This document shows positions 6,281 through 17,403 of a DNA stretch of 64,000 bases, in pieces. Both the position numbers and the translations under genes were made by a program. Origin of the DNA: an uncultured Chloroflexia bacterium (GTDB lineage: Bacteria; Chloroflexota; Dehalococcoidia; GIF9; AB-539-J10); assembly GCA_963769975.1 (NCBI GenBank), contig CAVYNS010000003.1, forward strand, positions 384,434-448,433, written 5' to 3'. The notes beneath the pieces are model-generated. The model worked only from the letters and a program-made list of their open reading frames with translations, did not search any database and was not told where the DNA came from. Each line of letters begins with the position of its first letter. The first letter of the stretch is position 1.

Positions 6281-7993
6281 ATGAATTTAAAGAAGCTTAT
6301 CTCTGTGGCTAGAGGGGAAACACCGGCTGATTTGCTCCTGAAAAATTGCCGGATAGTAAATACTTTTATCGGAGAAATAGAGCAAGGCAACGTAGCCATC
6401 TATGACGATAGGATTGCCGGCGTAGGGGATTATGATAATGCCAAGGAAATTATAGATTTACAAGGCCGGTTTTTAGCTCCCGGGCTGATTAACGGGCATA
6501 CGCATATAGAAAGCTCTATGCTTCACCCGGCAAGGTATGCTCAAGCCGTGGTCACCAGAGGCACTCTGGCTGTGGTTACTGACTTACACGAAATCGCCAA
6601 CGTTTGTGGACCTGCAGGCATAAAATTTGTCATGGATTGGGCACGAAAGCTCCCACTGGATATGTTGTTCATGGCTCCGTCATGCGTGCCAGCAACCCAT
6701 CTGGAGACATCAGGTGCTCAAATCAGTTCCAAAGAAGTAAAGAAAATTCTAGCCTCCCCCAATGTAATTGGTCTGGGAGAGATGATGAACTTTCCCGGCG
6801 TAGTCAGCGGGGATGAAGAGGTTTTGCAGAAGATCGGTGCCTCTCAGGGCAGAGTTATTGATGGACACGCTCCGGGACTCAGTGGTAAAGAACTGAATGC
6901 TTACTTGTCCGCTGGCATTCTTTCCGACCATGAATCCACTACCCTGGAGGGAGGAAAGGAGAAGTTGCGCCGGGGCATGTACCTCATGATTCGAGAAGGC
7001 TCTTCAGAAAAGAACTTGGATGCCCTTCTGCTTCTGGTTACCGACAATACTTATAAAAGATGCTTCTTCGTGGTGGATGACCGTAGTTGCTCGGATTTAC
7101 TTCGGGAAGGCGATATTGACGCTGTGGTCCGAAAGGCTATCAACCAAGGTCTGGAGCCAGTTCGGGCAATTCAAATGGCAACGATTAATACTGCCGAGTA
7201 TTTCAGACTCCATGACAGAGGAGCCATTGGTCCGGGTTATATGGCCAATCTCATAACCATCACCAACCTGGCTAAACTAGAGATAGACATGGTGTTTTAC
7301 CAGGGAAAGCTAGTAGCAAGTCAAGGCAAGCTCTTGTCCTCCTTGCCTCCTGTTACTCTGGAGCTAAAAGACACGGTACGCATCAAGCCCATTATGGTGA
7401 AATCGTTGTCATTGCGAGCGAAGCAAAGCAATCTCAGTGAGGAAAGCTACCCGGTTATCGAAATCATCCCCGGACAGATAGTCACCAAAAAGACAATAGA
7501 AGAGATAAAAGTTGTGAATGGGACACTTATGCCCGATGTGGAAAGAGATATTCTAAAGCTGGTGGTGGTGGAAAGACACAAGGCTAGCGGCAATATCGGC
7601 TTGGGACTGGTCAAGGGATTTGGCTTGAAAAAAGGAGCATTAGCCTCATCAGTGGCTCACGACTCTCACAACATAATAGCGGTGGGCACCAATGACCTCG
7701 AAATCCTCAAGGCAATTGAGGAAATTAATAGGCTGCAAGGCGGGCTGGTTGTTTGCGCCGACCTGGAAATTCTCGCTTCTTTACCGTTGCCTATCGCCGG
7801 CCTCCTTTCACCGGAGCCGCTCGATGTGGTCGTATCCCAGTATGAAATTGTTGAGAGGGCTGCTGCCAGCCTGGGCAACTTACCTCCAGCTCCATTTTCT
7901 ATCTTATCTTTCCTGGCTCTGCCTGTGATTCCCGAGCTCAGGTTGACCGACTTAGGCTTAGTGGACGTGGTAGAGTTTAAGTTGCTCAAGTAG
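6281..7993 (+). CDS. ade: adenine deaminase
   Basis: 570 aa amidohydrolase with the HTHIES metal-binding motif and adenine-deaminase C-terminal domain; contains an in-frame copy of a palindromic-repeat arm at 7406-7433. Confidence 0.85.
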   Translation: MNLKKLISVARGETPADLLLKNCRIVNTFIGEIEQGNVAIYDDRIAGVGDYDNAKEIIDLQGRFLAPGLINGHTHIESSMLHPARYAQAVVTRGTLAVVTDLHEIANVCGPAGIKFVMDWARKLPLDMLFMAPSCVPATHLETSGAQISSKEVKKILASPNVIGLGEMMNFPGVVSGDEEVLQKIGASQGRVIDGHAPGLSGKELNAYLSAGILSDHESTTLEGGKEKLRRGMYLMIREGSSEKNLDALLLLVTDNTYKRCFFVVDDRSCSDLLREGDIDAVVRKAINQGLEPVRAIQMATINTAEYFRLHDRGAIGPGYMANLITITNLAKLEIDMVFYQGKLVASQGKLLSSLPPVTLELKDTVRIKPIMVKSLSLRAKQSNLSEESYPVIEIIPGQIVTKKTIEEIKVVNGTLMPDVERDILKLVVVERHKASGNIGLGLVKGFGLKKGALASSVAHDSHNIIAVGTNDLEILKAIEEINRLQGGLVVCADLEILASLPLPIAGLLSPEPLDVVVSQYEIVERAAASLGNLPPAPFSILSFLALPVIPELRLTDLGLVDVVEFKLLK

Positions 7994-8076
7994 AATTAAG
8001 TCTGAGTTCTCAAAGCCCGAGATCAGTGACAGTTGAAAGCCGCCCGCTGGATTGACTGGTTATACAATCATTGATC

Positions 8077-8445
8077 TTATACCCATTCAACCTTCTCAAT
8101 TGTAATCTCATTTCGAACGTTACCCGTATTGGGCACACCCTCTGGTTCAATAAGGATAGCTTTGTATCCATTCTCAGAAGAAGGCTTATGCTCGACTCCT
8201 TTCGGGATAACAATCATCTCCCCAGCGCCTACTTCCACATTGCAATCACGAAAGTTCATAACAAGTGTGCCCTCCATGATAATGAATGTTTCATCTGTTT
8301 CAGGATGGCTGTGCCAAATGAAGTCACCTTTGAATTTTACGATTTTGAAGTCGTAGTTGTTCATCTTAGCCACCAAACGCACTGCGTAGTCACCGGCTGG
8401 CAACTTTCCGAACTTATCCGAAAGGTTGATTTTTTCCACGGTCAT
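8077..8445 (-). CDS. cupin-domain protein
   Basis: 122 aa; His-containing cupin motifs (HSHPETDETF...GEM). Confidence 0.6.
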   Translation of the reverse strand: MTVEKINLSDKFGKLPAGDYAVRLVAKMNNYDFKIVKFKGDFIWHSHPETDETFIIMEGTLVMNFRDCNVEVGAGEMIVIPKGVEHKPSSENGYKAILIEPEGVPNTGNVRNEITIEKVEWV

Positions 8446-8801
8446 TATTCATCCTCCTTTTCTCTTATAGCCCGTTTTCCGCCAAAAGCATGAATAGTTC
8501 TTGTTCCCGGAAGACTTACCCCACCATGCAGCGTACCCTTGGGAATGAAATATTCTTCACCCACCTCTACAGGAATCCGCTTACCACCTATTGTTACATC
8601 ATATTGCCCTTGTACCACAACAAAATACTCGTCATATTCATGAGTGTGTTCGGCTGATATCCCTCCCTTTCGATTTGTCCATATCGCTATTTGGCTTCCG
8701 TCTATTCCATCAAATACATAACCTTCAATCCCCTGAGTATATTGACTCTGGGAAGCAATCCGATTTGATGGATTTCTCATAAATTCTGGGAAATTGTTCA
8801 T
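8445..8801 (-). CDS. cupin-domain protein
   Basis: 118 aa; cupin motifs (HTHEYDEYF...GTLHG); overlaps the previous gene by 1 nt. Confidence 0.6.
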   Translation of the reverse strand: MNNFPEFMRNPSNRIASQSQYTQGIEGYVFDGIDGSQIAIWTNRKGGISAEHTHEYDEYFVVVQGQYDVTIGGKRIPVEVGEEYFIPKGTLHGGVSLPGTRTIHAFGGKRAIREKEDE

Positions 8802-8820
8802 TACCTTCTCCTTTGCGCAG

Positions 8821-8867
8821 CAAAGATTATGTCACCTTCCCATCTACATCAAGCGATATGTATGGTG
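8821..8867 (-). promoter_or_regulatory. promoter-like repeat module, copy 1 (upstream of the cupin gene)
   Basis: Conserved 47-nt module; on the coding (minus) strand it reads TTGATG-N15-(TGa)CATAAT about 25 nt before the start codon. Confidence 0.4.
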
Positions 8868-8869
8868 AA

Positions 8870-9736
8870 TCAGTTTTCTTTCTTATCCGACCGACGTTCC
8901 TCTAAAAGCACCCAGTCAAGCTTTGCAGCTTCAGGATTGTCTTCTAATTCGTCCAAGGCAATTATCTTTGTTTGCAGTAATAATTTAAAATAGCCTTGAA
9001 GATACTTATCTTGGCACTCTGCTGCCCATTGTTGCCATGAACTTTTGATGGTTTCTTCTACAAGCTCTTTCTCTGACTTTTCCGATACCAAGATCTTGGG
9101 GAGGTAGCGGGCTTCTTTCTTAATCTCATGGTTGTAAACAGCAGGGAGGAGAAGTGGAACTCCATCTTTAGGAGTATCACCTAGTTTAGCATCATGGTAA
9201 ATATTAACTCGACAACGCCATTCTCTCTCATGAGTCCAATCTACTACATATCCATCTACGTTTGGTATTGGTTCATATCTAACCCATAAATATTGGTAAT
9301 CCTTTGCTAAGCCATTTTTGTAAATTTCTTTGCCTTCCTCATATCCAGGTTCATTAGGGCTAAGCAGTTCTCCGAGGATGTCTCCTGAATCATAGATTAC
9401 CGACCTACCGCCATATCGATAAAGAGCTCTTTTGTAAAGAGCTATGCCATAAGGGCTATATCGGTTTGGCAAAATTTTGCAGCTTTTCATAAAGTTTTCA
9501 AAAGTCTGCTCAGTGAATGATACGGCTGGATAGGGTCCTCTAACTGTAGGACGTTTAGGTCCACCATAAAAAGACGGCCTAGGGGCAAAACTTGGTTTTA
9601 AGTACCCACATTTAATTATATTTAGTAAAGTTGTAAGGGGTTCAATATATCCCCCCTCGTACCTGCGCCTAATCCAGTGAATCACATAATCTGTAATGTC
9701 GGTCCTTTCTTTCCTAATTCTTTCCCAGTCTTTCAT
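8870..9736 (-). CDS. hypothetical protein, 288 aa, partner of the OLD nuclease
   Basis: Long ORF with no recognisable motif; immediately downstream of the OLD-family gene on the same strand and carrying its own promoter-like repeat. Confidence 0.55.
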   Translation of the reverse strand: MKDWERIRKERTDITDYVIHWIRRRYEGGYIEPLTTLLNIIKCGYLKPSFAPRPSFYGGPKRPTVRGPYPAVSFTEQTFENFMKSCKILPNRYSPYGIALYKRALYRYGGRSVIYDSGDILGELLSPNEPGYEEGKEIYKNGLAKDYQYLWVRYEPIPNVDGYVVDWTHEREWRCRVNIYHDAKLGDTPKDGVPLLLPAVYNHEIKKEARYLPKILVSEKSEKELVEETIKSSWQQWAAECQDKYLQGYFKLLLQTKIIALDELEDNPEAAKLDWVLLEERRSDKKEN

Positions 9737-9816
9737 AGTTAAGAAAGTTTTACTTCTCCCCTATTGCATACGATGGTTGCTTTTTCAAAGGGCTCACTGC
9801 CGGGAATTTCGGGGGG

Positions 9817-9890
9817 CACCATGCTTAATTCCAAAGATTATGTCGCCCCCCCATCTACATCAAGAGATATGCATGGTGTCCCTTTAATTG
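9817..9890 (-). promoter_or_regulatory. promoter-like repeat module, copy 2 (upstream of the 288-aa gene)
   Basis: Same module as 8821-8867, plus flanks (gcTTAATTcc ... TTAATTg) that are shared only with copy 3. Confidence 0.4.
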
Positions 9891-9904
9891 GGTGACCTTG
9901 CGCC

Positions 9905-11776
9905 TCATTCGGATATAAGACCTTTCATGTCTCCAAACCACTCAAGGAGCTCCGCATCTGGATCTACCTTATCAAGCAAAGCCTTCGTCATATTCTTTGT
10001 AGCACGGGAACAGAGTACCTTCTTTGCCTTGGATTCCTTGTCCTCTTTCACTTCTTCGGGAAGGTCGTCCCACGGTTTGGGGCTTCCAGAGGTTTCATGA
10101 ACCAATCGCGCGATCTCTCGCGGAACATCATCAAACGGCCCGAAATCAGATCCTATCTGCAAGCTAATATCTAGTTCTTTATATGCAGCAACAATGGCAT
10201 CTTTGTGCAGGTAATTCTCCATTTCCTTCTTCGCTGTGTTTCGGGCTTTACAACCCTCACGAGCAGTTACCTGATCTACATAGCCTTGGTATTTCGCCGG
10301 TTCCGGCGGAGCGACATCCCTATCGCAAAGATGGAACTCGGGTCTACAGAGGGGTTCAAGACGGGAGGACCAGAGCGCCAGCGTACTGCCGCCAAGAGGA
10401 AAGAAGATGATTTCACCATCCAGTTCTAGCCTTTCCAGATCAATAACGTCAACACCGTCATTGCGTAAAGCGGAAGCTATAGTCCGCAGAAAAGTAATGT
10501 CATTCGGGCCTTCTACGCCAATGAATAACTTCACTGTATTGTCTGGCAGAACCCCAAGGGATTTGGTAAATATCGGATTCGTCTGGGGGCCGCCCTTCAG
10601 GATTCTCCTGGACTTGTCTTCATTGATCTCGATGTAGCGTAGGCAACTATCGGGTAAAGCACGTGCGAGCATAGGCGTGTGCGTACTTATGATCACTTGG
10701 GCTTCGGAAGACAGGTCTGACAAAGCTCTCAACAGCATTCGCTGATTGTTCGGGTGCTGGCAAGTTTCGGGCTCTTCAATGGCATAAACCACCGCCGTAT
10801 GACCTGTTTCTCCTGCAAGTTGTTCCGCTTTTGCACGAAAGAAGTTCAGTAAAATGAGTCTCTTAACACCGCTGCCACGCTTGTTGAGGGGAATGTCGTC
10901 ATCTGAGGTAATGCTGGCCTTAAAGAGGCTATCCCATTTAAGTGTGGTAAAGGTAGGGTTGAGTTCCGTTGCGAGAGTGGGATCCATTTCACGGAGTTTT
11001 TCTAACGTCGAATTAGCGATCTTCTGCACTTCAGCCCGAACGTATTCAGTGATTTCCGCAAGTTCTGCTTCCTTAGCCTTGATAGCCTCTTTGACGGCAG
11101 CCTTCAGCGGGTCCTGGGCTTCAGAGTCTTGGTCAGTACTTTCGCGGTCTGACTTAAAAAGCGCGAAGGCAGGAAGGTACTTGCGAAGCTCAGTCCATAT
11201 CTTCTTGGCGTTGTCTGCTGCGGTCAGCGGGATCAACGATGGAGCAAGCTGCAGGTCAACAAAATGATCTCGTATTCGTGCGCGTATCTGAGCATTGATT
11301 CTCTGATCAACACCCTCGAGATCTAAGTTCAGATCTTTGGCCCGCTGTTTAAGGCCAGGATTCGTGAGTTGTAAGAGATCATTTGCCCCATCCACAGTTG
11401 GATGGTTGGCGTAGGCTTCGATGCTCGTGCATTTTGGCTTCTGCAGATGTCCGCTGTAAGACTTATGGATCTCCAGTCTCCCCTCATCGTTTAGGAGAAA
11501 CTCAATGCCGAATTTTGTGGGATTTGCGTCATCTAAGACAACTTCATCTGGAAGATCAGTAAACTCACAGATTATTTTCAAATCATTCGGATCGCCGCCT
11601 TTTGAAGCATCATCTTTATCTGGATCAATGTCGTTCAGGAACAAGTACAGTGCGTCCAGGACCGTAGACTTACCGGAATCGTTCCTTCCGATAAAAGCTG
11701 TGATATCCTCGAACTCAATAGGTATTTCTTCCTGAAAACACCGGAAGTTACGAAGGCGTAATCTCGCGAGTTTCAT
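9905..11776 (-). CDS. OLD-family ATP-dependent endonuclease (ABC-type ATPase + TOPRIM), class 1 (single gene)
   Basis: 623 aa; Walker A GRNDSGKST, Walker B/D-loop YAIEEPE, H-loop STHTP, and a C-terminal TOPRIM (GVEGPNDITFL ... DRD). Confidence 0.85.
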   Translation of the reverse strand: MKLARLRLRNFRCFQEEIPIEFEDITAFIGRNDSGKSTVLDALYLFLNDIDPDKDDASKGGDPNDLKIICEFTDLPDEVVLDDANPTKFGIEFLLNDEGRLEIHKSYSGHLQKPKCTSIEAYANHPTVDGANDLLQLTNPGLKQRAKDLNLDLEGVDQRINAQIRARIRDHFVDLQLAPSLIPLTAADNAKKIWTELRKYLPAFALFKSDRESTDQDSEAQDPLKAAVKEAIKAKEAELAEITEYVRAEVQKIANSTLEKLREMDPTLATELNPTFTTLKWDSLFKASITSDDDIPLNKRGSGVKRLILLNFFRAKAEQLAGETGHTAVVYAIEEPETCQHPNNQRMLLRALSDLSSEAQVIISTHTPMLARALPDSCLRYIEINEDKSRRILKGGPQTNPIFTKSLGVLPDNTVKLFIGVEGPNDITFLRTIASALRNDGVDVIDLERLELDGEIIFFPLGGSTLALWSSRLEPLCRPEFHLCDRDVAPPEPAKYQGYVDQVTAREGCKARNTAKKEMENYLHKDAIVAAYKELDISLQIGSDFGPFDDVPREIARLVHETSGSPKPWDDLPEEVKEDKESKAKKVLCSRATKNMTKALLDKVDPDAELLEWFGDMKGLISE

Positions 11777-11978
11777 TTTGGCTCACCAAATATCTATATC
11801 TTATGCTTATTTTCTATACTTATTCTATAAGTATATATTGTAGGATAAGACAGCACGAAATATCAAGTATGAAATATTAAGGATTTCCCTATTTAGATTA
11901 TGTTGAAATGTGAGGGGGTAATTCGGTATAACGGTCTGCAGGTCAGTTGCAACCGCTTGTTAGATGGCTCACTCCTGA

Positions 11979-12242
11979 TTACAGCCCGTATCGAAAAGGT
12001 CTGACACATTCAAATTGTCCAGGCGAAACACGTCGGAACAATTCAGAGTTTTTCCTAGGATTCCCTACTGAGTGCTTGTCCAAGAATGCTTTATAAGTTC
12101 CATTGCCAAACCCTGGACAAGCCGCTCGAAAATCATCTTTCGAGAAAGGCTCGCTCAGTGACCCTTTGCGAACGGCTTTGATAATGGCCGTGTACACTCG
12201 GTGCGTCATCGCTGCATTCTCCAGGCTAGATATAGCTCCCAT
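11979..12242 (-). CDS. hypothetical small protein (87 aa)
   Basis: ORF only; overlaps the 3' end of the upstream repeat peptide by 17 nt. Confidence 0.3.
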   Translation of the reverse strand: MGAISSLENAAMTHRVYTAIIKAVRKGSLSEPFSKDDFRAACPGFGNGTYKAFLDKHSVGNPRKNSELFRRVSPGQFECVRPFRYGL

Positions 12243-12477
12243 CAGGACACATCACAGGCTGGCCAGCAACATAGGTGCCGTCGGGAGCCATCATTATTTC
12301 GCCGCCATCGCCCACATACTTTCCATTTGGGGCCATGCGCGGAGTGCCAGCCACATAGCTTCCGTTTGGAGCCATCTGTATCGCTCCTCCGTCACCGACG
12401 TAAGTACCATCTGGCGCAAGACGAGGCGTGCCGTTGACATACTTTCCGTTCGGTGCCAATGTCGGTCGTTTTGTCAC
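12226..12477 (-). CDS. repeat peptide, five copies of (L/M)APNG(K/S)YV(A/N)GTPR-like units
   Basis: 83 aa; GTG start with a strong SD (GAGGAGG) 6 nt upstream; internal periodic repeats. Confidence 0.45.
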   Translation of the reverse strand: MTKRPTLAPNGKYVNGTPRLAPDGTYVGDGGAIQMAPNGSYVAGTPRMAPNGKYVGDGGEIMMAPDGTYVAGQPVMCPDGSYI

Positions 12478-12609
12478 TTTCTACCTCCTCGTTTGCCGTC
12501 TAACATCTATTTTTTTATACCCATTTTCTATGCCCATTCTAGTTGCCCGCGGTCACATAGAGCCGATGCTGGGCAGCGTTTTCCACCTGGCATAGTCCGA
12601 GAATTGTGT

Positions 12610-13194
12610 CTACCTCTCGATACTCTCCGCTCCCAGACACCAAGGCTTGGTCTGCTTCGAAATCTCCATCTGGCGGTCACATGCACGAGTATTGCTTCGC
12701 TCCAGCTCTAGCAATCGTCTCTTAACCGACAATCCACCACCATATCCGACAAGCTCTCCACCGCTTCCAATTATTCGATGGCAAGGGACGATTATGCTGA
12801 TGGGGTTTGCCGCGTTGGCATTGCCCACAGCTCGAACAGCTCTTTCATTGCCTATTTCCCTTGCTATCTGTGAGTATGTTGATGTAGCTCCATATGGCAC
12901 CTTCATGAGCGCATTCCAGACGCTTTTTTGGAAGTCAGTCCCCACCATTAATACAGGAATGTCAAACTTTCTCTTAAGTCCCTTAAAATACTCATCAAGT
13001 TGCGTTCTCGTTTTCTCCAGAATTTCATCATCGTGTTCGACAAACTCGGCATTCAATGCCTTCTTGATCCTATCATCAACGGTTCTTCTCATTTCTCTGC
13101 TTCTGAAACCAAGCAAACACAGTTTGCCACGAAAAGAACCCAGTACGACTCCCCCAATCTCAGTTTTGTGAAGTTGAATGTTAATTTGGTTCAT
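12610..13194 (-). CDS. ogt: methylated-DNA--protein-cysteine methyltransferase
   Basis: PCHRII active-site motif and a helix-turn-helix; 194 aa, slightly extended at both ends. Confidence 0.8.
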   Translation of the reverse strand: MNQINIQLHKTEIGGVVLGSFRGKLCLLGFRSREMRRTVDDRIKKALNAEFVEHDDEILEKTRTQLDEYFKGLKRKFDIPVLMVGTDFQKSVWNALMKVPYGATSTYSQIAREIGNERAVRAVGNANAANPISIIVPCHRIIGSGGELVGYGGGLSVKRRLLELERSNTRACDRQMEISKQTKPWCLGAESIER

Positions 13195-13275
13195 TTTTCC
13201 TCTCTTTCCCTACTCATAACGGCGGGTATAACGACCCTGCGACGAGCGAAAGAAAGATGCTCTTCATTTCAGGGA

Positions 13276-13353
13276 CACCATGCTTAATTCCAAAGATTAT
13301 GTCAACTCTTTATCTACATCAAGAGATATATATGTACGATGTCCCCTTAATTG
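13276..13353 (-). promoter_or_regulatory. promoter-like repeat module, copy 3 (upstream of ogt)
   Basis: Same module; the coding strand has TTGATG ... TTGACATAAT about 100 nt before the start; shares the TTAATT flanks with copy 2. Confidence 0.4.
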
Positions 13354-13362
13354 CCAGAATTA

Positions 13363-14715
13363 TCACTTCTCCCTGGTGGCCCATAGTGATGAAGCATCGA
13401 AAGCCTCTCCTTTGAGTTTGGCTTCTATGACTTTCTTTAATTCTCCTATGGGCACTCGAATTTGCGATAGGCTGTCTCTTTCCCGAATGGTAACCTGCTT
13501 ATCTTCTAAGGACTCAAAATCTATGGTCACGCAGAACGGGGTACCGATTTCGTCCTGACGCCTGTACCTTCGCCCTATGCTCTGAGAATCATCGTAATCG
13601 GTGACGAAGCTCGGGCATAGTTGCTTGAAAACCTCTTTAGCCAGGGGGGTTAACTTTTCATTCCTGCTTAAGGGCAAAACAGCTACTTTAATGGGAGCCA
13701 GAGAAGGATGCAGATGCAGAACTGTCCTTTTTTCTCCTTCGACTTCTTCCTCATCATAGGCATCAACGAGGAAAGCCAAAAGAGAGCGGTCGACGCCAGC
13801 CGAAGGCTCAATAACATAGGGAACATATTTTTCGCCAGCCTCAGCATCATAGTAACTGAGCTCTTTGCCGCTATGCTTGGCATGCTGGGTGAGGTCGAAA
13901 TCGCCCCTGTTAGCGATACCCTCCAGCTCCGACCAGTCCATAGGGAAGAGATAATCGATGTCATAGCAGTCCCTGGCATAGTGAGCCAGCTCATCTTTGC
14001 CATGCTGGCGCAGGCGAAGGTTTTCCTTCCTGATACCCAGTTTGACATACCAGTCAAACCTCTCCTTGACCCAGTAGTCAAGCCACTTTTCATCAGTCCC
14101 GGGCTTAACGAAATACTCCAGCTCCATATGCTCAAACTCTCTGGTCCTGAATATAAAGTTGCCGGGGGTGATTTCATTGCGGAAAGACTTACCTATCTGA
14201 GCAATGCCCAGAGGCAACTTCTTCCTAGAGGTGGTGACCACATTCTCAAAGTTAACGAATATGCCCTGGGCAGTTTCGGGGCGGAGATAGACAATGCTTG
14301 CTTCCTCTTCCACAGGACCCATAAAAGTTTTAAACATCAGGTTGAACATGCGAGGCTCGGTTAGCTCACCACCACATTGGGGACATTTCTTGCCTTCTAC
14401 TGCGTCAGCACGCCACCTCAGGTGGCAGGACTTGCACTCTACAAGGGGGTCTGTGAAATTATCAATGTGGCCACTAGCAGCCCAGACTCCGGGGTGCATC
14501 ATGATTGATGTGTCCAGACCTACTACATCATCCCGCTCATGGACTACCGCCTTCCACCAGGCCTCTTTGACATTGCGCTTAAGTTCCACCCCCATAGGAC
14601 CGTAATCCCAGCAACTAGCTAAACCGCCATATATTTCGCTGCTGGGGAAAATAAAACCCCTCCGCTTACATAGAGAAACGATTCTATCCATATCTACTTT
14701 AGCAGGCATCTTCAC
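13363..14715 (-). CDS. glyQS: glycine--tRNA ligase (dimeric archaeal/eukaryal type)
   Basis: 450 aa; class II aaRS motifs, and the N-terminus [23 protein letters not shown] is typical of alpha2 GlyRS. Confidence 0.9.
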
Positions 14716-14805
14716 GTCTCCTTTGAGTTTCTTAGCTTACCAGCTTTATTCACAGGCGTCAAAGGGGTGTCCTCGTTCGCGGTACCTGAATGACACTTCC
14801 TCTCT

Positions 14806-14882
14806 GTCATTGCGAGGCTGGCGAAGCCAGCCGAAGCAATCTCGGTGGGGCTAAGAGATTGCCGCGCTTCGCTCGCAATGAC
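14806..14882. repeat. palindromic intergenic element (GTCATTGCGAG ... CTCGCAATGAC family)
   Basis: Imperfect 27-38-nt inverted repeat around a 12-nt loop, between glyQS and clpB; its translation yields the spurious ORFs 14712-14963 and 14845-15120. Confidence 0.6.
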
Positions 14883-14967
14883 GAAAGAAAGAGGGGCTCG
14901 CAATAACATGGGCTCAGCGTGGCAAAGAGAAAAGGTCATAGAGGAAAGCGAGTTGCTGAACAACCTA

Positions 14968-17403
14968 TTATTTAGTCTTAGCCCTGGCAGTTTTCAAGGC
15001 CGCGAAGCTCAGGTTATCTTCCTTCAAGCTAACAGCTATGGTATCTCCTTCTTTGAACTCACCCTGCAATATCTTGGTCGATATGGGATTTTCCACATAC
15101 TTCTGAATAGCCCGGCGTAAGGGGCGAGCTCCATATACCGGATCGTAGCCTTTCTGGACTAACCAGGCTTTGGCTTCTTCATTCACTTCAAGCTGAATAT
15201 TACGCTCAGCCAACCCACGTTCTACCTCACGGATAAGTAGGTCAACGATGCTCTTCAAGTGCTCTTTAGTTAGAGGGTGGAATATGATGACATCATCTAT
15301 CCGGTTGAGTAACTCGGGAAGTAAGTGTTCCTTTAAGGCGCTTTTCACATCGGTCCTCATTTTTTCTTCGTCGCCTTCCTCTTTACGGAGAAAACCTATG
15401 CCCCCACGCTGGAATTCCTTGGAGCCTAAGTTACTGGTCATGATTACTACCGTGTTTTTGAAATCCACAGTCCGGCCATGTCCATCGGTAAGCCGGCCAT
15501 CCTCCAGTAGCTGCAACAATATGCTAAGGACGTCGGGATGAGCCTTTTCCACCTCGTCGAACAGGATGACCCGATAAGGACGGCGGTGCACGGCCTCAGT
15601 CAATTGTCCCCCTTCCTCATAGCCCACATACCCGGGAGGCGACCCGATAAGACGGGACACAGTATGTTCTTGCATATATTCCGACATGTCCAGCCTTACC
15701 ATGGCGTCTTCGTCGTCGAAGAGAAACTCGGCTAAGGCACGAGCCAGCTCGGTTTTCCCCACACCGGTAGGGCCGAGGAAGATGAAACTGCCGATAGGAC
15801 GTTTGGGGTCCTTGAGCCCGGCTCGGCCACGCCTGATAGCCTCAGAAACGGCAGCCACTGCCTCATCCTGGTCCACTATCCTCTGGTGAATCCTCTCCTC
15901 CATATGAACCAACTTATCAGTTTCCGTTTCCATCATCCGCGAAACGGGTATGCCTGTCCACTGGGCAACCAGTCCGGCGATATCTTCCTCATCTACCACA
16001 CTGTCAATCTTCTTCTCTTTCTGCCACTTGAGTTTGGCCTGGTTGTATTCCTGTTCCAAACGTATCCTTTCCGCTTTCAATTCAGCAGCTTTCTTATAGT
16101 CCTGCCGCTGCGAAGCAGCCTCCTCCTCATCACGCAGGTGTTTCATCTTTCGGTCCAAAGTTTTAACTTCCTCAGGAGCGCTTTCCATATCAAGGCGTAG
16201 CTTGCTGGCTGCCTCATCGATTAAGTCAATTGCCTTGTCAGGCAAGAATCTGTCGGATATATATCTCTGGCTCAGCTTGGCAGCAGCTACCAGGGCGGAA
16301 TCTTCGATCTTTATTTTGTGATGTGCTTCATATCGGGGACGAAGTCCTCGAAGCATCTCTATGGTGGCTTCTACGCTGGGTTCATCTAGATAAACAGGGC
16401 TGAAACGTCTCTCCAGCGCCTTATCTTTCTCCACGTGCTTGCGATATTCATCCAGTGTAGTGGCCCCGATACATTGAATCTCACCGCGAGCCAGTGCTGG
16501 CTTTAGCATATTACTGGCGTCAATTGCTCCTTCGGCAGCTCCAGCCCCCACCACGGTGTGAAGCTCATCAATGAACATAATAACTTCACCAGCCGCCTGC
16601 CGGACTTCATCTAAAACCGCCTTTAGCCTTTCCTCAAACTCCCCGCGGAATTTGCTTCCCGCTACCAGTGCTCCCATATCCAAAGCCACCACCCTTTTCC
16701 CTTTCAGGGAATCGGGGACATCTTCAGCAGCAATCTTTTGAGCTAATCCCTCAGCAATGGCAGTCTTGCCCACGCCGGCGTCGCCAATAATCACAGGATT
16801 GTTCTTGGTGCGCCGGGAAAGTATCTGTATCACACGCTTGATTTCGTTTTCCCGTCCGATTACAGGGTCGAGCTTGCCCTGACGAGCTAACTCCGTGAGG
16901 TCATGCCCGTACTTTTCCAGGGAACGGTACTTGCTTTCCGCTTGACGGTCGGTGACGCGATGACCGCCACGGATTTTCTGCAAGACTTGATAAATTTTTT
17001 CCTGGGTGACGCCAGATTCAGCGAGAATTGTTGCGGCTTCGCCCCTGGTTTCTCCGGCAATAGCAATGAGCAGATGCTCAGTGCTGACAAACTCGTCCTT
17101 GAGCCTGTCAGCTTCCTTGTTGGCATTCTCGAGAAGAGCAGCAACTCGCGGAGTAGCATAAATTTGCCCCACCTCATAAGTTATCTTGGGGAAACTTTCA
17201 AGCGTTGCTCCTACCCGCTTTTTTATCATATCAATATCCACACCCAGCATCTGTAATATGTCCTTGGTTACTCCCTTTTCCTGCTCCAGCAAAGCTAACA
17301 GGACATGCTCCACATCCCACTGGTTATGGCGATAGCGACGAACTAGCTCCTGTGAGGCTTCTAGAACCCCTTGTGCTTGCTCAGTAAATCTCTCCGGTTT
17401 CAA
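14968..17403 (-). CDS. clpB: ATP-dependent chaperone ClpB
   Basis: 811 aa; two AAA+ modules (GVGKT Walker A twice), a coiled-coil middle domain and a Clp N-domain; TTG start with an AGGGGG SD. Confidence 0.9.

What the first reader, a model, noticed from the sequence alone, without database searches (positions are those of the whole stretch)
8870..11978. Class-1 OLD-family ATPase/TOPRIM nuclease with a co-oriented unknown 288-aa partner in a small inserted block
The 623-aa protein has all ABC-ATPase motifs plus a C-terminal TOPRIM, the architecture of P2 Old / class-1 OLD nucleases, whose defence mechanism is still poorly understood. The 288-aa ORF directly downstream has no recognisable domain. 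The block is bounded upstream by a ~200-bp AT-rich spacer (11777-11978), unusual for this ~50% GC window. It is interspersed with three copies of a promoter-like repeat and sits next to a repeat peptide and ogt, which suggests a horizontally acquired defence or stress islet. It lacks the UvrD-like GajB (so it is not Gabija) and has no retron or AriB partner.
Basis: partly seen in the sequence, partly recalled or inferred. Interest (0 to 1): 0.7.

Follow-up and report, generated by a model that had tools for sequence, protein, structure and literature searches.

The report
Solo OLD nuclease beside unrelated ART-like gene
The two neighbouring genes are real, but they are not a two-gene system: one is a stand-alone OLD-type ATPase-nuclease of a common, widely spread family, and the other is a separately mobile gene for an AbiGi/DarT-like enzyme, and both sit in a strain-variable gene-cassette region.

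Summary

The pairing is not conserved. No co-occurrence was found in 80 genome loci with partner homologues, 80 metagenome loci with OLD homologues, or 89 viral loci. Closely related Dehalococcoidales contigs carry OLD without the 288-aa gene at the same site (one differs by a clean cassette-sized gap inside a repeat) or the 288-aa gene without OLD. GC content also differs (0.40 against 0.48).

The region between glyS and the adenine deaminase gene is a hypervariable cassette array. Its junctions carry a ~90-nt promoter-like repeat.

New members of known kinds; modest interest.

The parts
9905..11776 (-). Gene for a 623-aa OLD-family protein (ABC ATPase + TOPRIM nuclease), stand-alone
   Evidence: ORF. 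Pfam AAA_15 E 7e-72. More than 6000 homologues, 60-94% identical across phyla. Best PDB sequence relative is TsOLD 6p74, E 1.7e-16, ATPase part only.
10622..11776 (-). ATPase region (residues 1-385): Walker A K36, signature 299-307, Walker B 329-337, H-loop H366
9908..10621 (-). C-terminal region (residues 386-623): TOPRIM core plus helical bundle; E422, D426, D485, D487, E518, E520, H524, K585
8870..9736 (-). Gene for a 288-aa AbiGi/DUF2971/DarT-like ART-fold protein; an independent cassette; motifs H20, S73-x-T75, E170-x-E172
9804..9894 (-). Full copy of the ~90-nt cassette-junction repeat (promoter-like core flanked by a 12-13-nt inverted repeat), between OLD and the 288-aa gene
   Evidence: The L085/window breakpoint lies inside it.
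8821..8867 (-). Core-only copy of the repeat, between the 288-aa gene and the cupin genes
13263..13357 (-). Full copy of the repeat, between glyS and ogt
11777..11978 (.). AT-rich leader upstream of OLD (GC 0.347) with a sigma-70-like site TTGATA-18-TACAAT at 11866->11837 on the - strand; parts of it recur upstream of unrelated genes in sister contigs
11979..12242 (-). 87-aa ORF upstream of OLD; kept with OLD in L085; absent in L084, where the cassette repeat directly precedes the OLD leader, and homology to the window in L158/L159 begins downstream of it; not a conserved OLD neighbour

Best explanation
These are two independent single-gene cassettes that happen to be adjacent. They lie in a strain-variable accessory/defence islet between glyS and the adenine deaminase gene of a Dehalococcoidales genome.

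(1) The 623-aa protein is a solo OLD-family enzyme.
- Shown: an intact N-terminal ABC ATPase; a C-terminal TOPRIM fold with the two-metal acidic set (E422/D426, D485-x-D487, E518-x-E520); no conserved partner gene.
- Inferred from TsOLD, P2 Old and Vc OLD: it dimerises through its ATPase insert and uses ATP binding or hydrolysis to control a Mg2+/Ca2+-dependent nuclease. That nuclease would nick or degrade invading DNA (or, as reported for P2 Old, cut tRNA) and so block phage or plasmid propagation.

(2) The 288-aa protein belongs to an uncharacterised family related to AbiGi/DUF2971.
- Inferred: it binds NAD+ and ADP-ribosylates a nucleic-acid or protein target, as cargo of mobile elements.

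Each gene has its own upstream promoter-like module. Each is gained or lost separately between sister strains, probably by recombination at the ~90-nt repeats.
For: Domains. Invariance of the acidic residues across 38 close and 35 distant homologues. The pattern E...(+4)D/E, DxD, [S/T/D]xE equals the metal A/B ligands reported for TsOLD, BpOLD and P2 Old (PMC7049728, read).

No pairing:
- 0 of 80 partner loci have an OLD-like gene.
- 0 of 80 OLD loci have a partner homologue, and 49 of these have at least 1 kb of downstream sequence.
- 0 of 89 viral loci.
- 0 of 7 contigs whose 288-aa gene is 82-84% nt identical.

Same-site relatives:
- L085 (92.5% nt) has OLD-repeat-cupins, with the 288-aa gene cleanly missing.
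- L084 (94%) has MTase/REase-repeat-OLD-repeat-ade.
- L004 (80%) has the 288-aa gene without OLD.

GC is 0.404 for the 288-aa gene against 0.482 for OLD.

Immediate neighbours of OLD elsewhere are heterogeneous. R-M components recur, and no UvrD-like or reverse-transcriptase family appears among the 25 neighbour families listed. On plasmids the gene is a lone "ATP-binding protein".

The partner family links to AbiGi and DUF2971. AbiGi is listed as an ART-like family near DarT/DUF2971 (PMC12522546).
Against: - TOPRIM identity rests on a predicted structure and motifs. No sequence profile links the C-terminus to any known TOPRIM family, and no residue-level superposition could be made.
- No terminator-like site was found between OLD and the 288-aa gene, so read-through co-transcription in this strain is possible.
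- The repeat's hexamers are 15 nt apart by eye and did not pass the sigma-70 scan, so "own promoter" is unproven.
- A defence role is inferred for both genes; nothing was tested.
Confidence: 0.78

Rival explanations
1. The two genes form a new two-component defence system in which the OLD ATPase-nuclease works with, or regulates, the 288-aa protein.
For: The genes are adjacent, co-oriented and 168 nt apart. No terminator-like site lies between them. Both families are typical mobile-element or defence-island cargo.
Against: There is no co-occurrence in 249 independent loci, nor in 7 further contigs carrying close homologues of the 288-aa gene. Sister contigs carry either gene alone at the same site. 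A separate repeat/promoter-like module lies between them. Base composition differs.
Confidence: 0.04
2. The OLD-like protein is not an autonomous defence gene. It is instead an accessory of restriction-modification systems, or a housekeeping DNA-processing factor comparable to the archaeal Class 5 OLD Cran1.
For: Conservation is unusually high for a defence gene (60-94% identity across phyla). It recurs next to DNA methylases, HsdS and SNF2/ResIII genes (8, 7 and 5 loci in the +/-4-kb clustering; immediate neighbours). In L084 it sits directly after a type II MTase/REase pair. Cran1 shows that OLD proteins can have non-defence roles (PMC12796447).
Against: Most loci have no R-M neighbour. The gene is present or absent between near-identical strains. 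It is frequent on conjugative plasmids as a lone gene. A housekeeping factor would not be strain-variable.
Confidence: 0.12
3. The 288-aa protein is not an active ADP-ribosyltransferase. The ART resemblance would then be a remote fold relic, and the protein would act as a non-enzymatic regulator or "antitoxin", as Pfam labels AbiGi, or through another chemistry.
Confidence: 0.22

Closest known systems
Class 1 OLD nucleases (P2 Old, Thermus scotoductus OLD 6P74, Vibrio cholerae Vc OLD, E. coli YbjD)
   Same: It is a single gene with no dedicated partner and has an N-terminal ABC ATPase plus C-terminal TOPRIM. The ATPase domain is the closest PDB sequence match (6p74, E 1.7e-16). The metal A/B acidic pattern is the same.
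   Different: It is longer (623 aa against 528 for TsOLD). It carries a C-terminal helical bundle, which TsOLD lacks (PMC7049728). The C-terminus has no detectable sequence similarity to any described OLD TOPRIM.
Class 2 OLD / Gabija GajA (BpOLD C-terminal region 6NK8, GajA 8U7I)
   Different: There is no UvrD/PcrA-like GajB gene next to it here, and no UvrD-like family appears among the 25 families listed for 68 neighbours of homologues.
PARIS (AriA + AriB, Class 4 OLD)
   Different: Here the ATPase and TOPRIM are fused in one polypeptide.
AbiGi of the lactococcal AbiG abortive-infection system (Pfam PF10899) and DUF2971
   Same: Members of the 288-aa family give weak to borderline PF10899 hits (25 of 46 at E<=1; one above the curated cut-off). 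A faint DUF2971 hit is seen, and a plasmid relative is annotated DUF2971. Size is similar.
   Different: The window protein has no hit of its own. No conserved neighbour was found and no AbiGii family appears among the neighbour families listed. The family forms its own well-conserved group, including longer forms fused to DUF4427.
DarT (DNA ADP-ribosyltransferase of DarTG)
   Different: Sequence identity is 10-12% and there is no PF14487 hit. No DarG macrodomain antitoxin is adjacent. Foldseek does not support the match.
Integron cassette arrays / genomic-island hot spots at 3' ends of conserved genes
   Same: Single-gene cassettes sit in one orientation, separated by a shared repeat. Strains differ by whole cassettes. 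Duplicated 3' fragments of the flanking genes glyS and ade lie inside the array.
   Different: No integrase was found (crude motif scan only). The repeat's conserved part is its centre, not its stems. Single-strand folding is no better than for shuffled sequence, unlike attC sites.

Membership tests
OLD family nuclease (general) | N-terminal ABC-type ATPase with Walker A, Walker B and H-loop | tested here: met
   Pfam AAA_15 1-370, E 7e-72. Aligns to the TsOLD P-loop, Walker B and H-loop. Motif positions.
OLD family nuclease (general) | C-terminal TOPRIM fold | tested here: met
OLD family nuclease (general) | Metal A ligands (Glu + DxD) and metal B ligands (acidic residue at Glu+4, [S/T/D]xE) | tested here: met
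   E422, D426, D485/D487 and E518/E520 are present. E422 and D485 are invariant and E520 nearly so, even in distant homologues; D487 is replaced by Glu in most of the stand-alone forms. The pattern matches PMC7049728. Residue-by-residue superposition was not possible.
OLD family nuclease (general) | ATP-dependent or metal-dependent nuclease activity | not testable with these tools
   Needs biochemistry.
Class 1 OLD | Single gene, no conserved neighbouring component | tested here: met
   No conserved neighbour cluster in 80 loci. A lone gene on plasmids.
Class 1 OLD | Shorter protein lacking the C-terminal helical domain of Class 2 (as in TsOLD) | tested here: not met
   623 aa. Model residues 551-622 form a helical bundle. 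The best match is the Class 2 BpOLD CTR.
Class 2 OLD / Gabija | [quoted passage not shown] | tested here: not met
   The downstream gene here is the 288-aa ART-like protein. No UvrD-like family appears among the 25 families listed for 68 immediate neighbours of homologues.
Class 3 OLD / retron | Adjacent reverse transcriptase and msr/msd ncRNA | tested here: not met
   No RT family appears among the neighbour families listed. No Rfam hit in 7000-15000.
Class 4 OLD / PARIS | ATPase (AriA) and TOPRIM (AriB) encoded by separate adjacent genes | tested here: not met
   The two domains are fused in one 623-aa ORF.
AbiG (AbiGi + AbiGii) | Match to Pfam AbiGi (PF10899) above the curated cut-off | tested here: inconclusive
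   The window protein has no hit. Among family members, 25 of 46 hit at E<=1 and P0095 scores 26.3 bits against a 22.4 cut-off over 50 residues only.
AbiG (AbiGi + AbiGii) | Adjacent AbiGii gene | tested here: not met
   The neighbours here are OLD and cupins. There is no conserved neighbour in 80 loci, and no AbiGii family appears among the 25 neighbour families listed.
DarTG | DarT-type ART domain (PF14487) with adjacent macrodomain antitoxin DarG | tested here: not met
ADP-ribosyltransferase superfamily | Three-motif catalytic core (H/R; Y or S-x-S/T; E or E-x-E) on the split beta-sheet fold | tested here: inconclusive
Integron | IntI integrase plus attC sites that fold as imperfect hairpins | tested here: not met
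   No Tyr-recombinase motif in the window (crude scan). Repeat folding z-scores range from +0.9 to -1.6.

The most novel reading that the evidence does not exclude
The glyS-ade interval of this Dehalococcoidales lineage may be a dedicated cassette-exchange site. It would be an integron-like array without a recognisable integrase. In it, single accessory or defence genes (OLD, the AbiGi-like ART, a type II R-M pair, ogt, cupins) would be inserted, deleted and reordered at a ~90-nt promoter-bearing, inverted-repeat-flanked element. Duplicated 3' ends of glyS and ade would mark successive insertions. A second reading that is also not excluded: the 288-aa family are solo DarT-like nucleic-acid ADP-ribosyltransferases, which would give AbiGi-type proteins a biochemical function.
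Probability: 0.25. Interest if true: 0.6.

Novelty: new member of a known kind. Interest (0 to 1): 0.3.

Why it matters
The proposed new OLD-plus-partner system does not exist, which saves follow-up effort. Three smaller points remain.
- A very large, highly conserved and plasmid-borne subfamily of solo OLD enzymes has a TOPRIM domain that current sequence models miss. It is usually annotated only as "ATP-binding protein", so defence-system censuses probably undercount it.
- An uncharacterised family related to AbiGi/DUF2971 has a DarT-like predicted fold and an intact ExE motif. This supports an ADP-ribosyltransferase chemistry for AbiGi-type proteins, whose mechanism is still unknown.
- The locus is a clear natural example of gene-by-gene cassette turnover in uncultured Dehalococcoidales.

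Tried and rejected
- Two-gene system: rejected by neighbourhood analysis from both sides, with tblastn and with family profiles.
- Sequence-level proof of TOPRIM: failed. Tried Pfam on the C-terminus at E<=10, a profile of 35 distant homologues against PDB, Pfam on those members and a full-length profile against PDB (ATPase only).
- Foldseek confirmation of the DarT match: nothing significant.
- PADLOC and NCBIfam give only generic ATPase hits for OLD and nothing for the 288-aa protein.
- attC-like hairpin for the repeat: folding is no better than for shuffles.
- Sigma-70 scan: the repeat's hexamers did not qualify; by eye they are 15 nt apart. A site in the AT-rich leader did qualify.
- Retron or other ncRNA: no Rfam hit.
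- Integrase in the window: none by a crude motif scan. A proper domain scan of all window ORFs was not done.
- 87-aa ORF as a conserved OLD partner: seen only in L085.
Full report
1. What is in the sequence

On the minus strand the order is:
- glyS (13363-14715)
- a ~90-nt repeat
- ogt (12610-13194)
- a tandem-repeat peptide ORF (12226-12477)
- an 87-aa ORF (11979-12242)
- a 202-nt AT-rich leader
- the 623-aa ORF (9905-11776)
- the repeat again
- the 288-aa ORF (8870-9736)
- a core-only copy of the repeat
- two cupin genes (8077-8801)

The adenine deaminase gene (6281-7993) then converges on the plus strand. The repeat occurs three times in 64 kb and none is expected by chance. The leader has GC 0.347, below every 900-nt window of the 64 kb. 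The nearest genome in the species collection is an uncultured Dehalococcoidales MAG (L004).

2. The 623-aa protein

Residues 1-370 match Pfam AAA_15 at E 7e-72. Walker A (K36), signature, Walker B and H-loop are present. A family profile finds the Class 1 OLD from Thermus scotoductus (6p74) as the best solved relative (E 1.7e-16), but only over the ATPase.

The last ~240 residues have no sequence hit. This held for Pfam at E<=10, for a profile of 35 distant homologues against PDB, and for Pfam on those homologues.

The sequence carries E422-x3-D426, D485-R-D487 and E518-M-E520. E422 and D485 are invariant and E520 is nearly so, even among homologues 30% identical. D487 becomes Glu in most of the stand-alone versions. 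This is the pattern of metal A and metal B ligands reported for TsOLD (E377, D431, D433; D381, S478, E480), BpOLD and P2 Old (PMC7049728).

The protein is longer than TsOLD and has a C-terminal helical bundle like Class 2 enzymes. "Class 1" applies by gene context rather than by architecture.

3. The 288-aa protein

It has no hit of its own in Pfam, PADLOC or NCBIfam. It has 108 homologues in metagenomes, all unnamed. These share invariant H20, G44, G67, D166, E170, E172, W173 and R174.

Links to known families:
- Scanned one by one, 25 of 46 family members give weak AbiGi (PF10899) hits. One (P0095) passes the curated cut-off.
- More distant relatives are clearly homologous (hhalign E 1e-55). 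They include ~400-430-aa forms with a C-terminal DUF4427.
- One gives a faint DUF2971 hit, and a plasmid relative is annotated DUF2971.

H20, S73-x-T75 and E170-x-E172 lie on or beside the strands where ART motifs I-III are found. A published survey lists AbiGi as an ART-like family near DarT and DUF2971 (PMC12522546). A 2026 review still regards AbiG as being of unknown mechanism (PMC13064643).

4. Are they partners?

No, on every test made.

From the partner side: 80 genome loci with homologues contain no OLD-like gene by tblastn or by family profile (one weak unrelated ABC ATPase). They also have no conserved neighbour at all.

From the OLD side: 80 metagenome loci, 49 of them with at least 1 kb downstream, contain no partner homologue by tblastn or profile.

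Among 89 viral or prophage loci carrying one family or the other, none carries both.

The same chromosomal site in close relatives is the most telling evidence.
- L085 (92.5% nt identity) reads 87-aa ORF, leader, OLD, repeat, cupins. The window differs from it by exactly the 288-aa gene plus one repeat unit, and the breakpoint lies inside the repeat.
- L084 (94%) reads glyS, DNA methylase, MutH/MvaI-like endonuclease, repeat, OLD, repeat, ade.
- L004, L254/255, L256/257, L258/260 and L259 (80-84%) carry the 288-aa gene at this site with five different sets of neighbours and no OLD.

The two genes also differ in composition. The 288-aa gene has GC 0.404 (1st percentile of the window) and OLD has 0.482 (average).

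5. What accompanies the OLD subfamily elsewhere

The family is very large, with more than 6000 hits at E<=1e-10. It is 60-94% identical across Aminicenantes, KSB1, Clostridia, Acidobacteria and others.

Neighbours are heterogeneous. Restriction-modification parts recur: N6_N4 and N6 methylases, HsdS, ResIII/SNF2 and DUF2130. No UvrD-like helicase or reverse transcriptase appears among the neighbour families listed.

Homologues lie on 376 plasmids, 297 of them conjugative. They are annotated only as "ATP-binding protein" or "AAA family ATPase" and are flanked by unrelated genes.

The C-terminal domain also exists as stand-alone ~230-aa proteins.

6. Mechanism

For OLD, the architecture and catalytic motifs are shown. 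Activity is inferred from TsOLD (metal-dependent nicking and exonuclease, PMC7049728), Vc OLD (a solo Class 1 nickase that blocks phage replication, PMC12392090), P2 Old (tRNA anticodon-arm cleavage, PMC12445682) and YbjD (PMC13261556).

For the 288-aa protein, NAD+-dependent ADP-ribosylation is an inference from fold and motifs. The target is unknown.

7. The locus

The repeat consensus is CAATTAAGGGGACACCATACATATCTCTTGATGTAGATGGGGAGGCGACATAATCTTTGGAATTAAGTATGGTGTCCCCGAAAT.
- It has a strongly conserved centre with -35/-10-like hexamers and 12-13-nt inverted arms.
- It does not fold better than shuffled sequence and did not qualify in the sigma-70 scan.
- An HMM of it finds 22 copies. All lie in these Dehalococcoidales loci, all in the cassette orientation, usually between cassettes and sometimes facing the convergent ade gene.

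Pieces of the AT-rich OLD leader recur upstream of unrelated genes in L254 and L256. Duplicated 3' fragments of glyS (L004) and ade (L254, L258) lie inside the arrays.

No recombinase motif was seen in the window, but the scan was crude.

The simplest reading is recombination between repeated promoter modules. A dedicated cassette-exchange mechanism is not excluded.

8. Verdict

Both proteins are new members of known kinds, and interest is modest.

Noticed in passing
window 7993-13363; L004, L084, L085, L254-L260: The interval between glyS and the adenine deaminase gene is a hypervariable cassette array. At least eight different gene orders occur among contigs sharing roughly 75-94% nt identity with the window across this region. 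The cassettes include OLD, the 288-aa gene, a type II MTase/REase pair, ogt, cupins, PhzF, an MFS transporter and several unknown genes.
   Followed up: partly
window 8821-8867, 9804-9894, 13263-13357 (- strand): A ~90-nt repeat with a conserved promoter-like centre and 12-13-nt inverted arms marks cassette junctions. There are 22 copies, all in the related Dehalococcoidales loci and all in one orientation. Its single-strand folding is not significant, and no integrase was found.
   Followed up: partly
window 11784-11932; L254 4123-4192 and 5068-5132; L256 1069-1130: Pieces of the AT-rich leader upstream of OLD recur (about 82% identity) directly upstream of unrelated genes in sister contigs (PhzF, a methyltransferase, a 315-aa unknown). 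This suggests a second reusable 5' module.
   Followed up: no
L004 5190-5361; L254 3942-4002; L258 1245-1520: Duplicated 3' fragments of glyS (172 nt) and of the adenine deaminase gene (61 and 277 nt) lie inside the arrays. Such fragments are left by successive insertions at the ends of conserved genes.
   Followed up: no
proteins P0305, P0322, P0326, P0337 and others: The TOPRIM-plus-helical C-terminal domain of this OLD subfamily also occurs as stand-alone ~220-240-aa proteins with their own N-termini (DxE instead of DxD). These may be split, PARIS-like versions. Their gene neighbours could not be looked up.
   Followed up: no
L029-L081 (for example L065 7998-9272, L067 7971-9251, L077 7986-9248): Longer (~400-430 aa) relatives of the 288-aa protein carry a C-terminal DUF4427 domain.
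   Followed up: partly
window 12226-12477 (- strand): An 83-aa ORF is built of tandem ~28-aa units (84-nt period, 70% identity between the two copies found) with the recurring motif APNG/APDGxYV. It has only a sub-threshold PD40 hit. Its 3' end (to window 12317) is kept upstream of OLD in L085.
   Followed up: no
window 11979-12242 (- strand): An 87-aa ORF with no family hit lies upstream of OLD. It is kept with OLD in L085. It is absent in L084, and homology to the window in L158/L159 begins downstream of it.
   Followed up: partly
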